Shown here one piece after another: positions 417 to 4,509 of a stretch of 4,509 bases of DNA (the first letter of the stretch is position 1; every line of letters starts with the position of its first letter). Origin of the DNA: a virus. Lineage: Monodnaviria; Loebvirae; Hofneiviricota; Faserviricetes; Tubulavirales. The notes below the pieces were generated by a model. The model did no database searches and was not told the origin of the DNA. It saw nothing but the letters and a program-made list of their open reading frames with translations. The position numbers and the translations under genes are program-made. Location of the stretch: IMG/VR virus record IMGVR_UViG_2529293044_000013; one strand, written 5' to 3'.

Positions 417-2012
<1,596 letters not shown>

Positions 2013-2016
2013 TTCA

Positions 2017-2187
2017 TCACCAGTAAAAACTAAATGGTTTTACAATTCGACGGAAATCCTGATCGGCTTTTTCAAGAATAACTGAAACAACATATTCTTC
2101 AATGGTTGTATTTTTATTGTAAATAATTCTTTCTATCTGCTCGACAGTGTATTCTGGCAATTTAACTTTAAATTCTTGAGTAGACAT
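2017..2187 (-). CDS. Unlisted small ORF, 56 aa, hydrophilic, function unknown; stop overlaps the RBS region of the pIII-like gene
   Basis: Hand translation of the minus strand: ATG at 2187..2185 preceded by GAGG (tttgtGAGGttttATG). Product [56 protein letters not shown], stop TGA at 2019..2017, 5 nt before the pIII ATG. Below the apparent length cutoff of the ORF track. Confidence 0.4.
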
Positions 2188-2277
2188 AAAACCTCACAAA
2201 TTAGATTTAAAGCCAATGACGCAACATAACCCACAAAGGGAACCAAACATCATAAAAATAAAATCAAACATAAATAT

Positions 2278-2305
2278 CCAAAAAAAGGGCGGAATATCCG
2301 CCCTT
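2278..2305 (-). terminator. Rho-independent terminator directly downstream of the major-coat-like gene
   Basis: Plus strand aaaaaaaGGGCGGaatatCCGCCCtt. On the minus-strand RNA this is an 8-bp GC-rich stem (AAGGGCGG / CCGCCCUU) with a 5-nt loop, followed by a run of U (seven A on the plus strand at 2280-2286). The major-coat stop is at 2322-2324. Confidence 0.75.
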
Positions 2306-2321
2306 CCTCATAAAAAACAAC

Positions 2322-2570
2322 TCAGATACTTCTGATGGCTCCCCATACTTTACGAACGCCAGCAAAAGTCAGATAAACTGTAACTCCTGCAACACCGATA
2401 GAAAGAATAACAGCAGAAACAGAAGACATATCAATACTGTTAGTCAATGATGAAAAATCGACTGTACCAGCAAAAGACGGAGATACAGCAAGAGCAGAAG
2501 CAGCGGAAAAAGATAAAGCTGCAACTTTCTTATCAACACCCTTAAAAAAATTGGTCATTTTTGCAAACAT
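2322..2570 (-). CDS. Major coat protein (pVIII-like), 82-aa precursor
   Basis: Start chosen at the ATG at 2570..2568 because AAGGAG lies ~9 nt upstream (ttaatAAGGAGactttaattATG); the track ORF 2322..2630 is a 5' over-extension. Product MFAKMTNFFKGVDKKVAALSFSAASALAVSPSFA / GTVDFSSLTNSIDMSSVSAVILSIGVAGVTVYLTFAGVRKVWGAIRSI: signal-like leader, then ~48 aa with acidic N-terminus, hydrophobic core and basic C-terminus, the classic inovirus major coat layout. Followed by the intrinsic terminator. Confidence 0.75.
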   Translation of the reverse strand: MFAKMTNFFKGVDKKVAALSFSAASALAVSPSFAGTVDFSSLTNSIDMSSVSAVILSIGVAGVTVYLTFAGVRKVWGAIRSI

Positions 2571-2572
2571 AA

Positions 2573-2746
2573 TTAAAGTCTCCTTATTAAACTCCAAATT
2601 GTGGAAATAATCATGCCAAGAAAAAAACAAAATACTGGCAGTGAAAATCCCGTTAAAAACGCCGAGGAATAAATCCCCGACACATCAGGTATCCCCACGC
2701 AAATAGCATTAATTTGCGTGGAAACTGAATCCGAATTAACAGACAT
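2573..2746 (-). CDS. Unlisted small ORF, 57 aa, small membrane protein; candidate minor coat protein (pVII/pIX-like position)
   Basis: Hand translation: ATG at 2746..2744, 4 nt after the TAG stop of the upstream gene; stop TAA at 2575..2573, 2 nt before the major-coat ATG. Product MSVNSDSVSTQINAICVGIPDVSGIYSSAFLTGFSLPVFCFFLGMIISTIWSLIRRL: acidic/polar N-terminus, ~20-residue hydrophobic segment, basic C-terminus. Weak RBS. Contains the 10-bp inverted repeat at 2695..2721. Confidence 0.4.
   Translation of the reverse strand: MSVNSDSVSTQINAICVGIPDVSGIYSSAFLTGFSLPVFCFFLGMIISTIWSLIRRL
2695..2721. other. Perfect 10-bp inverted repeat with 7-nt loop (potential RNA/DNA hairpin)
   Basis: ccacgcaaat (2695-2704), agcatta (loop), atttgcgtgg (2712-2721); the arms are exact reverse complements. 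No U-tract follows on either strand, so it is not a canonical intrinsic terminator. Confidence 0.5.
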
Positions 2747-2750
2747 AAAA

Positions 2751-4509
<1,759 letters not shown>

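What the first reader, a model, noticed from the sequence alone, without database searches (positions are those of the whole stretch)
2573..2746. Unlisted 57-aa small membrane-protein ORF between the ssDNA-binding-like gene and the major coat gene
Missed by the ORF track, presumably because of its size. It is tightly packed between its neighbours (4 nt after the upstream stop, ending 2 nt before the major-coat ATG, whose AAGGAG RBS lies inside its 3' end). Its polar, hydrophobic, basic layout is what small inovirus virion-cap proteins (pVII/pIX) look like, and those are normally encoded just upstream of the major coat gene.
Basis: partly seen in the sequence, partly recalled or inferred. Interest (0 to 1): 0.45.

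Follow-up and report, generated by a model that had tools for sequence, protein, structure and literature searches.

The report
Unannotated small membrane gene in filamentous prophage
The 57-codon reading frame is a real, conserved gene for a one-helix membrane protein at the head of the virion-gene block of an E. coli filamentous prophage, most likely a minor cap protein of the phage particle, and standard annotation misses it.

Summary
A 57-codon ORF lies on the minus strand at 2573-2746. It starts 4 nt after the upstream stop and ends 2 nt before the coat ATG, whose AAGGAG sits in its last codons.

It is a real gene.
- It is 174 nt with no net indel in the best match of all 27 complete E. 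coli genomes that carry it; RefSeq annotates it in none.
- It is intact in 23 of 24 other contigs.
- Among 13 haplotypes, 15 of 22 variants are synonymous (P about 5e-5).
- Three unrelated replication modules join just before its ATG, and a different coat module joins just after its stop.

The predicted product has an acidic N-tail, one 32-residue helix and a C-terminal RRL.

It has no detectable sequence relatives and does not match the Ff pVII Pfam model. However, 69 of 74 related coat loci, including Y. pestis YpfPhi, carry a 38-100 aa ORF with the same C-terminal helix and basic tail in the same slot (hhalign 73%). All members are named hypothetical.

A cap-protein role is the best reading but remains inferred. 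A conserved, unannotated 25-aa ORF just after the coat gene (2194-2271) may be its partner.

The window's own prophage is defective: zot is deleted and IS100 interrupts rep.

The parts
2573..2746 (-). 57-codon ORF (s57). Predicted single-pass inner-membrane protein with an acidic N-tail (1-26), a helix (25-56) and a C-terminal RRL.
   Evidence: ORF, translation, hydropathy. (AF2: helix 25-56, pLDDT 78-96 over residues 31-57). (intact in other contigs; 174 nt in 27 genomes). (15 synonymous, 7 non-synonymous, P=5e-5).
2747..2753 (-). Junction with the upstream gene: TAG stop (2753-2751) plus a 4-nt spacer before the s57 ATG. There is no good Shine-Dalgarno at normal spacing, so this is a likely site of translational coupling. 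It is also the recombination joint with alternative replication modules.
   Evidence: stop-to-ATG spacing is 3-6 nt in all three upstream contexts; homology of one group of genomes ends at window 2752.
2580..2585 (-). AAGGAG ribosome-binding site of the major coat gene, embedded in s57 codons 54-56.
   Evidence: sequence context. It is retained in L005, where a different coat gene follows.
2322..2570 (-). Major coat protein gene (82 aa precursor).
   Evidence: phrog_2186 virion structural protein, 2.9e-14. (weak Phage_Coat_B match). (PGAP CDS of 249 nt).
2751..3086 (-). Upstream 111-aa gene in the ssDNA-binding-protein position. It belongs to the Rep_trans replication module.
   Evidence: phrog_14411, unknown function. 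(always paired with the Rep_trans gene).
2695..2721 (.). Perfect 10-bp inverted repeat with a 7-nt loop inside s57 codons 9-18. It extends to about 13 pairs in RNA. Function unknown.
   Evidence: I1. (RNA fold of 2560-2770 minus strand: z=-3.3, 0 of 200 shuffles as stable).
2285..2305 (-). GC-rich 9-bp hairpin followed by a T-run on the coding strand: a terminator-like element after the coat gene.
   Evidence: (I2) and the sequence. It is read by eye as a terminator; the scan did not list it.
2194..2271 (-). Second unannotated mini-ORF (s25), 25 aa, MFDFIFMMFGSLCGLCCVIGFKSNL. Candidate partner cap protein.
   Evidence: ORF. (conserved consensus M.xW(D/E)LxxFxLGxLCGLVVVxGLN in relatives with Zot 33-43% identical). 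(found downstream of 55 of 74 coat loci).

Best explanation
s57 is a translated gene, the first gene of the virion-structural block of an E. coli inovirus prophage. That block runs s57, coat, 25-aa ORF, 56-aa ORF, pIII-like, pVI (DUF2523), Zot, secretin.

Shown:
- It is under purifying selection as a protein.
- It is kept as a discrete unit through module exchange.
- It is predicted to be a single long helix with an acidic N-tail and a basic C-terminus.

Inferred mechanism:
- It inserts into the inner membrane N-out, C-in without a signal peptide.
- It is made in small amounts by translational coupling to the upstream gene. It has no usable Shine-Dalgarno, while the coat gene has AAGGAG.
- It acts as a minor capsid protein of the assembly-initiating (distal) tip, the functional counterpart of Ff pVII and/or pIX. 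Its RRL end would face the DNA, its helix would pack with the first coat layers, and its 24-residue polar N-tail would be exposed at the tip.
- The conserved 25-aa ORF after the coat gene is the likely second cap subunit.
- It is probably a shortened member of an uncharacterised family (38-100 aa, phrog_3679-like) that fills the same slot in YpfPhi-like phages.
For: Real gene:
- 174 nt, ATG to TAA, with no indel in 27 of 28 copies fetched, covering 23 of 24 distinct contigs plus the window, and 174 nt in the best match of all 27 complete E. coli genomes.
- 22 variants in 13 haplotypes: 15 synonymous, 7 non-synonymous, none disruptive. Random placement predicts 16.0 +/- 2.1 non-synonymous, P=5e-5.
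- pN/pS is 0.14 in frame, against 0.67 and 0.81 in the other forward frames.
- 20 protein variants are all 57 aa, with residues 27-42 invariant.

Discrete module:
- Three replication modules (Rep_trans + 111 aa; Phage_GPA + 141 aa; G2P_X_C + gene V-like + 76 aa) all end 3-6 nt before its ATG.
- In L005 a coat only about 44-54% identical, with a diverged pIII/pVI/Zot set, starts directly after its stop.

Shape:
- AF2 predicts a helix at 25-56 with pLDDT 78-96 over residues 31-57.
- The charge pattern is -2 / 0 / +2. This matches the description of pVII and pIX as small, hydrophobic, lacking a signal sequence, forming a single helix, with positive C-termini facing the DNA (Conners 2023, PMC10175506).

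Slot conservation:
- 69 of 74 coat loci in relatives (Zot 32-56% identical) have an ORF of this family immediately upstream of the coat gene. Hosts include Y. pestis (YpfPhi), Haemophilus, Klebsiella, Photorhabdus and another E. coli prophage.
- Sizes run from 38 to 100 aa.
- The s57 profile aligns end to end with the family's C-terminal helix and tail: hhalign 73%, E=3e-5.
- hmmsearch gives 8-9 bits, against 0.9-1.2 +/- 2 for segment-preserving shuffles (38-49 of 5000 reach it). Other small membrane proteins score 2.5 bits or less.

Precedent: CTXphi psh, upstream of cep, is listed among the phage structural proteins (PMC3545932).
Against: - There is no direct evidence of translation or of presence in virions.
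- It matches neither the pVII Pfam model nor any PDB chain. An exhaustive phmmer search of 1.84 billion representatives finds only its own cluster.
- The link to the slot family is weak (8-9 bits, 73% probability) and rests on a transmembrane segment, which is prone to spurious similarity.
- s57 lacks the family's N-terminal Cys-pair beta-hairpin.
- It is nearly twice the size of pVII or pIX.
- In L005 it travels with the replication module and sits next to a much diverged coat. That is unexpected for a subunit that must pack against the coat.
- One isolate-derived contig carries a T7-to-T6 frameshift that truncates it at residue 44. A few read-assembly variants are fused to the coat frame.
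- A small membrane protein of the Pf4 core genome (PfsE) is a superinfection-exclusion factor.
- The family is named only 'hypothetical' or 'unknown function' in every source.
Confidence: 0.55

Rival explanations
1. s57 is a real small inner-membrane protein but is not a virion component. It would be an accessory factor acting on the host, for example superinfection exclusion or interference with a pilus or secretion machine, as PfsE does in Pf4.
For: PfsE (PA0721) is a 30-residue inner-membrane protein of the Pf4 core genome. It blocks type IV pili by binding PilC (PMC8764522). s57 has no homology to any proven capsid protein. It recombines independently of the coat gene in L005. Its N-terminal part is the most variable region.
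Against: Accessory genes are usually patchy. Here the slot is filled by the same family in 69 of 74 related coat loci across several bacterial families, which points to a core function. Without s57 and s25 the phage has no candidate for the distal cap, which Ff-type assembly requires. The charge layout predicts N-out, C-in, the reverse of the N-in orientation proposed for PfsE. The YAWGW motif of PfsE is absent, by inspection of the sequence.
Confidence: 0.22
2. s57 is a membrane-embedded assembly helper that works with the Zot ATPase and secretin export machine, or chaperones coat insertion, but is not incorporated into particles.
For: It is conserved at the head of the morphogenesis block. 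It is predicted to be an inner-membrane protein. It tolerates pairing with two Zot/coat sets only 80% (Zot) and about 44-54% (coat) identical.
Against: No known inovirus has a helper of this kind encoded in this slot; this rests on established knowledge of Ff genetics, not on a test here. The C-terminal basic tail directly after the helix is the hallmark of DNA-facing capsid subunits.
Confidence: 0.13
3. The ORF is not translated. The region is conserved for a nucleic-acid function, such as the 10-bp hairpin acting as a packaging, replication or RNA-stability signal, or as a spacer carrying the coat RBS.
For: A perfect 10-bp inverted repeat lies inside the ORF. The RNA folds better than all 200 shuffles, z=-3.3. 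No good Shine-Dalgarno precedes the ATG. RefSeq does not annotate it. The antisense frame that shares wobble positions also shows a low pN/pS of 0.17.
Against: Variation is concentrated at third codon positions (14 of 22) and is mainly synonymous, P=5e-5. There are no indels or stops over 174 nt in 27 of 28 copies. The start and stop codons are preserved next to four different neighbouring sequences. The antisense strand has no ORF of 25 aa or more across 2573-2746 in the window. No Rfam family matches. Distant relatives keep a protein of the same design in this slot, with unrelated DNA sequence.
Confidence: 0.04

Closest known systems
Ff (f1/fd/M13) minor capsid proteins pVII (33 aa, Pfam PF19978 Inovirus_G7P_2) and pIX (32 aa)
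   Same: Encoded between the ssDNA-binding-position gene and the major coat gene. No signal peptide. One hydrophobic helix of about 32 residues. Acidic N-terminus and basic C-terminus. Its start codon lies a few nt after the upstream stop with no usable RBS, as for f1 gene VII, which is translationally coupled to gene V (the f1 detail is my own knowledge and was not checked here).
   Different: No sequence similarity. It is 57 aa rather than 32-33, with an extra polar N-tail of about 24 residues. There is a single ORF upstream of the coat gene; the second mini-ORF lies downstream of the coat. Virion location is unproven.
Uncharacterised ORF family directly upstream of the coat gene in YpfPhi-like inoviruses (phrog_3679-like; for example the 83-aa ORF of Y. 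pestis YpfPhi at L086:3400-3651 and E. coli P0072, 74 aa)
   Same: Identical genomic slot. A C-terminal helix of about 32-34 residues followed by a K/R-rich tail at the extreme C-terminus. Profile similarity confined to that part (hhalign 73%; empirical p about 0.01). Short members of 38-39 aa show that the N-domain is dispensable.
   Different: Typical members are 65-100 aa and carry an N-terminal two-Cys beta-hairpin (AF2 strands 6-14 and 19-27), which s57 lacks. phmmer does not connect them. The family has no assigned function. The YpfPhi review assigns modules only to YPO2274-YPO2280 and does not discuss this ORF (PMC4266046).
CTXphi Psh (gene psh, immediately upstream of the coat gene cep)
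   Same: A small ORF at the head of the core (structural) region, in the order psh-cep-orfU-ace-zot. It is listed as a phage structural protein (PMC3545932).
   Different: Sequence similarity was not tested, because the psh sequence was not retrieved. CTXphi lacks its own secretin. The structural role of Psh is also largely by assignment.
Pf4 PfsE (PA0721)
   Same: A very small inner-membrane protein encoded in the core genome of an inovirus.
   Different: PfsE is 30 aa, has a YAWGW motif, is proposed to have its N-terminus in the cytoplasm, and acts in superinfection exclusion through PilC. s57 has none of these sequence features and has the opposite predicted topology.

Membership tests
Ff pVII / pIX (G7P, G9P) minor capsid proteins | Sequence match to the family model (Pfam PF19978 Inovirus_G7P_2 or a related model) | tested here: not met
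   The Pfam scan of s57 at E<=1 returns only a sub-threshold VCA0040-like hit. The positive control, f1 pVII, scores 1.3e-21 on PF19978. No PDB chain matches, and the PDB includes the f1 tip structures.
Ff pVII / pIX (G7P, G9P) minor capsid proteins | About 32-33 aa, no signal sequence, a single alpha-helix | tested here: inconclusive
   A single confident helix at 25-56 and no signal-peptide-like N-terminus are consistent. However, the protein is 57 aa with an extra 24-residue tail.
Ff pVII / pIX (G7P, G9P) minor capsid proteins | Negative N-terminus and positive C-terminus that faces the DNA | tested here: met
   Residues 1-26 have net charge -2, there is no charge in 27-54, and the C-terminal RRL gives +2.
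Ff pVII / pIX (G7P, G9P) minor capsid proteins | Encoded between gene V and gene VIII | tested here: met
   It fills the gap between the 111-aa gene and the coat gene. In type-C relatives it follows a true gene V-like (PF02303) gene plus a 76-aa ORF.
Ff pVII / pIX (G7P, G9P) minor capsid proteins | Five copies at the distal tip; required to initiate assembly on the packaging signal | not testable with these tools
   This needs virion proteomics, immunogold labelling and genetics.
Slot family upstream of the coat gene in YpfPhi-like inoviruses (alignments A3/A6, phrog_3679-like) | Located immediately upstream of the major coat gene in a Zot/DUF2523/secretin inovirus | tested here: met
   The family occupies this slot in 69 of 74 coat loci.
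Slot family upstream of the coat gene in YpfPhi-like inoviruses (alignments A3/A6, phrog_3679-like) | Profile-level similarity of the C-terminal helix plus basic tail | tested here: inconclusive
   hhalign gives 41.6% against A3 and 73%, E=3e-5, against A6. hmmsearch gives 8.0-8.8 bits; 38-49 of 5000 segment-preserving shuffles reach this. s57 has no significant PHROG hit; phrog_969 scores E=0.14.
Slot family upstream of the coat gene in YpfPhi-like inoviruses (alignments A3/A6, phrog_3679-like) | N-terminal two-cysteine beta-hairpin domain | tested here: not met
   s57 has one Cys in its N-tail and one in the helix. The family has a nearly invariant Cys pair and predicted strands at 6-14 and 19-27. 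The 38-39 aa members also lack this domain.
PfsE-type superinfection-exclusion peptides (Pf phages) | About 30 aa with a conserved aromatic YAWGW motif, N-terminus in the cytoplasm | tested here: not met
   The motif is absent from the s57 sequence. The positive-inside rule predicts the C-terminus in the cytoplasm. Binding to a host target is not testable here.

The most novel reading that the evidence does not exclude
The YpfPhi-like clade of inoviruses, including this E. coli prophage, builds its distal virion cap from two unrecognised proteins that flank the coat gene. One is the upstream family to which s57 would belong: a conserved C-terminal helix carrying a swappable N-terminal ectodomain, ranging from none through a 24-residue tail to a disulfide-closed beta-hairpin. 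The other is a 24-27 aa mini-protein just downstream of the coat gene, which no database models. The variable ectodomain would be displayed at the tip that leaves the cell first and could have a function of its own, such as gating the secretin or contacting host or cell surfaces.
Probability: 0.3. Interest if true: 0.5.

Novelty: new member of a known kind. Interest (0 to 1): 0.35.

Why it matters
Practical points:
- RefSeq leaves this gene unannotated in the best match of every one of the 27 complete E. coli genomes that carry it.
- The 25-aa ORF after the coat gene has no family model in Pfam, PHROGs or NCBIfam.
- Gene inventories of this prophage group, which includes the plague-associated YpfPhi, therefore appear to lack the small capsid genes.

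Biological points:
- Filamentous phage assembly needs a distal cap, yet outside Ff and close relatives the cap proteins are unknown.
- A conserved candidate pair flanking the coat gene is easy to test.

The finding is not surprising. Small hydrophobic ORFs next to the coat gene are expected in inoviruses, and the function remains inferred.

Tried and rejected
1. Direct homology searches for s57 found nothing informative.
- The word-indexed search found only two near-identical clusters.
- The exhaustive phmmer search of 1.84 billion representatives found only its own cluster plus a repetitive 411-aa false hit.
- tblastn and blastn against GenBank phages found nothing for s57, the coat or the region.
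- Pfam, PHROGs, NCBIfam and the PDB gave no significant match. Rfam gave none.

2. The first genome-contig scan, with a two-sequence Zot alignment, found nothing because its patterns were too specific. A broader Zot alignment worked.

3. Antisense gene. A 70-aa antisense ORF is called in some type-C loci, and the wobble-sharing antisense frame has pN/pS 0.17. In the window, however, no ORF of 25 aa or more spans the region on the plus strand. Rejected.

4. Programmed -1 frameshift into the coat frame.
- The T7 run at ORF nt 120-126 forms a U_UUU_UUU heptamer, the coat gene is in the -1 frame, and that frame is open upstream to the TTG at 2630 (ORF nt 117).
- 141-aa s57-coat fusions exist in databases.
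- These fusions are DNA-level homopolymer indels in read assemblies.
- In relatives, the frame relation between the slot ORF and the coat gene is not conserved: -1 in L086 and L034, 0 in L042, +1 in L045 (coordinates). Rejected as unsupported.

5. Hairpin as an intrinsic terminator. No T-run follows it on either strand. Its role is left open.

6. A fold search with a single-helix model would be meaningless and was not run.

Full report
**Context**

All genes of interest in the window lie on the minus strand and form an inovirus prophage. In order they are:
- a Rep_trans replication gene (3096-4199);
- a 111-aa gene in the ssDNA-binding position (2751-3086);
- the 57-codon ORF of the finding, here called s57 (2573-2746);
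- the major coat gene (2322-2570; phrog_2186, 2.9e-14);
- a terminator-like hairpin (2285-2305);
- a 25-aa hydrophobic ORF (2194-2271);
- a 56-aa soluble ORF (2017-2187);
- a 531-aa pIII-like gene (417-2012);
- the start of a DUF2523 (pVI) gene.

The closest DNA is in E. coli chromosomes (99.6% to strain AST20). There the intact element continues with Zot and a secretin and can be tandemly duplicated. GenBank phage records match only the IS100 at the right end of the window.

The window's own copy is defective.
- Positions 1-258 align inside the secretin gene and 259 onward inside pVI. This implies a 1301-bp deletion that removes zot.
- IS100 cuts the 5' end of rep near 4166-4200.
- s57 here is nevertheless identical to the copies in intact prophages.

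**The observation**

Every stated detail is correct.
- The ATG is at 2746, 4 nt after the upstream TAG.
- The TAA is at 2575-2573, followed by 2 nt and then the coat ATG at 2570.
- AAGGAG lies at 2585-2580, inside the last codons.
- The product has a polar acidic N-tail (net -2), 28 uncharged hydrophobic residues and a C-terminal RRL.
- Its 19-residue hydropathy maximum is 2.17, equal to that of f1 pVII.
- AlphaFold2 predicts one long helix at residues 25-56 (pLDDT 78-96 over residues 31-57) and an ill-defined N-tail.
- An ORF that fills the inter-gene gap end to end arises in about 1% of shuffles.

**Is it a gene?**

*Integrity.*
- In the best match of each of the 27 complete E. coli genomes that carry it, the match is exactly 174 nt.
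- Among 24 further distinct contigs from isolates, metagenomes and IMG/VR, 23 have an intact ATG-to-TAA frame without indels.
- The exception has a T7-to-T6 change in a homopolymer that truncates the product at residue 44.
- A few read-assembly variants have indels in T-runs that fuse it to the coat frame.

*Substitution pattern.*
- Across 13 nucleotide haplotypes there are 22 distinct variants: 14 at third codon positions, 15 synonymous, 7 non-synonymous and none disruptive.
- Random placement predicts 16.0 +/- 2.1 non-synonymous changes (P=5e-5).
- pN/pS is 0.14 in frame, against 0.67 and 0.81 in the other forward frames.
- The antisense frame that shares wobble positions also looks constrained (0.17), as expected from codon geometry, but it is not open in the window.
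- Twenty protein variants are all 57 aa, with residues 27-42 invariant and changes mostly in the N-tail.

*Modularity.*
- Three unrelated replication modules end 3-6 nt before the s57 ATG: Rep_trans + 111 aa; Phage_GPA + 141 aa; and Ff-like G2P + gene V-like + 76 aa.
- In contig L005 a different structural module begins immediately after the s57 stop. Its coat is about 44-54% identical, its Zot is 80% identical, and it has no 56-aa ORF.
- The ORF therefore behaves as a discrete cassette bounded by recombination joints at its own start and stop codons.

Conservation is thus not explained by the internal hairpin alone. PGAP never annotates s57, whereas the gene calls attached to ENA and Logan assemblies do include it.

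**What is it related to?**

By sequence it is an orphan. The exhaustive phmmer search of 1.84 billion cluster representatives returns only its own cluster. No Pfam, PHROG, NCBIfam or PDB match is significant. It does not match the pVII model PF19978, which f1 pVII hits at 1.3e-21.

Synteny is more informative. Zot was used as an anchor to fetch relatives (Zot 32-56% identical) from IMG/VR and from named genomes. The named hosts were Y. pestis (the tandem YpfPhi prophage), Haemophilus, Klebsiella michiganensis, Photorhabdus, Xenorhabdus, Brenneria, Arsenophonus and others.
- In 69 of 74 coat loci, the ORF directly upstream of the coat gene belongs to one family.
- Members are 38-100 aa. They usually have an N-terminal two-cysteine segment, and always a C-terminal hydrophobic helix followed by a K/R-rich tail.
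- AF2 on an E. coli member (P0072, 74 aa) gives a beta-hairpin (strands 6-14 and 19-27) plus a helix at 40-73.
- P0072 sits in exactly the s57 slot of another E. coli inovirus.
- The family corresponds to phrog_3679 ('unknown function'), and every source names it 'hypothetical protein'.

The s57 profile aligns end to end with the family's helix and tail.
- hhalign gives 41.6% against 14 members and 73% (E=3e-5) against 49 members.
- hmmsearch gives 8-9 bits, against about 1 +/- 2 for shuffles that preserve the polar and hydrophobic segments (p about 0.01).
- The coat, s25, f1 pVII, pIX and pVIII, and the Pf3 coat all score 2.5 bits or less.
- By eye, the common s57 variant has GIDSSAF where family members have IDYS/IDYA before the helix.

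I read s57 as a probable shortened member, and certainly the positional equivalent, of this family. The homology is not proven.

**Function**

In Ff, the distal 'round' tip is made of five copies each of pVII (33 aa) and pIX (32 aa). Both lack signal sequences and form single helices. Their positive C-termini face the DNA and are thought to engage the packaging hairpin. The N-terminus of pVII is negatively charged and exposed, which is why fusions there are tolerated (Conners et al. 2023, PMC10175506). Their genes lie between gene V and gene VIII (for example the fs2/VFJ table).

s57 shares the slot, the lack of a signal peptide, the helix length and the charge polarity. Its weak initiation context directly after an upstream stop resembles f1 gene VII, which depends on coupling to gene V (my own knowledge, not checked here). 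Such a context would suit a protein needed in a few copies, next to a coat gene with a strong AAGGAG. CTXphi has an analogous gene, psh, ahead of cep, listed as structural (PMC3545932).

The element has clear pVIII, pIII, pVI, pI and pIV equivalents but no other cap candidates, except for the 25-aa ORF just after the coat gene.
- That ORF is conserved across the whole clade, with consensus M.xW(D/E)LxxFxLGxLCGLVVVxGLN.
- It is unmodelled by PHROGs and NCBIfam and matches no PDB chain.
- s57 and this mini-protein would make up the two missing virion subunits.

I therefore commit to the cap-protein model at about 55%. That the gene is real and encodes a membrane protein I put at about 95%.

**Rivals**
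- A host-directed accessory membrane protein, as shown for Pf4 PfsE, at about 22%. The near-universal occupancy of the slot and the opposite predicted topology argue against it.
- A non-incorporated assembly helper, at about 13%.
- A non-coding element, at about 4%. The substitution pattern and the protein-level conservation of the slot with unrelated DNA argue against it.

**Caveats**
- Nucleotide diversity among s57 copies is low (at least 94.8% identity), so the selection test rests on 22 variants.
- Sampled contigs are not phylogenetically independent.
- Similarity between transmembrane segments is notoriously unspecific.
- The 10-bp hairpin inside the ORF, and the unusually stable RNA fold (z=-3.3), remain unexplained. 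They may add nucleic-acid-level constraint.

**Verdict**

This is an ordinary but genuine and systematically unannotated small inovirus gene. It is a new member of a known kind, and interest is modest.

Noticed in passing
window 2194-2271 (-): Unannotated 25-aa hydrophobic ORF (MFDFIFMMFGSLCGLCCVIGFKSNL) between the coat terminator and the 56-aa ORF. It is conserved in sequence and position in relatives with Zot only 33-43% identical (consensus M.xW(D/E)LxxFxLGxLCGLVVVxGLN), where it usually overlaps the start of the pIII-like gene. No PHROG, NCBIfam or PDB match.
   Followed up: partly
window 258/259: Compared with intact E. coli prophages, the window has a 1301-bp deletion. It joins the secretin gene (29 N-terminal codons lost) to the middle of pVII's neighbour pVI (DUF2523) and removes all of zot. 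The listed 89-aa ORF at 130-399 is therefore a pVI fragment running into out-of-frame sequence.
   Followed up: yes
window ~4166-4509: An IS100 (IS21 family) copy, 99.4% identical to annotated IS100 elements, interrupts the 5' end of the Rep_trans gene. About 42 N-terminal codons of rep are missing relative to L001.
   Followed up: partly
window 2695-2721 and 2661-2681: A perfect 10-bp inverted repeat and a second 8-bp stem lie inside the ORF. RNA of 2560-2770 (minus strand) folds better than all 200 shuffles, z=-3.3. The variants at ORF nt 43, 73 and 81 keep pairing as G-U wobble. No terminator tail follows and Rfam has no match. Function unknown.
   Followed up: partly
window 2621-2627 (T7 run, ORF nt 120-126): This homopolymer is a hot spot for indels. 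One IMG/VR isolate contig has T6, which truncates s57 at residue 44. Read-assembly proteins P0023 and P0025 have 1-nt indels in T-runs that fuse s57 to the coat frame, giving 141 aa. These could be sequencing errors or real variants.
   Followed up: partly
window 2747-2753 and 2571-2575; loci L002, L005, L006, L008: The phage family is a mosaic. Three unrelated replication modules, one carrying an IS110-family transposase, join a few nt before the s57 ATG. A diverged coat/pIII/pVI/Zot/secretin module joins right after its stop in L005.
   Followed up: yes
window 2017-2187 (-): A 56-aa acidic, non-membrane ORF lies between the 25-aa ORF and the pIII-like gene. PGAP annotates it as hypothetical. 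It occurs as a diverged version of 60-63 aa (37-46% identical) in other loci and is absent from L005 and the distant relatives. No family match.
   Followed up: partly
window ~780-960 (-), within the pIII-like gene: A long Gly-Thr/Gly-Ser repeat linker is encoded by tandem 12-18 nt units. The gene varies in length between copies, from 531 to 605 aa, and there is a 54-nt gap against L001.
   Followed up: no
L003:1501-1960 and L004:1523-1765: The coat gene itself carries indels in some complete genomes. A 1-nt indel in strain JNE070796 leaves the coat unannotated there. Several RIVM strains have an in-frame 6-nt deletion at the N-terminus (MF-MTNFF).
   Followed up: no
L001 (E. coli AST20) and L086/L087 (Y. 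pestis NCTC5923): The prophages occur as tandem copies in both hosts. The Y. pestis element is YpfPhi, whose published module map does not mention the 83-aa ORF upstream of the coat gene.
   Followed up: partly
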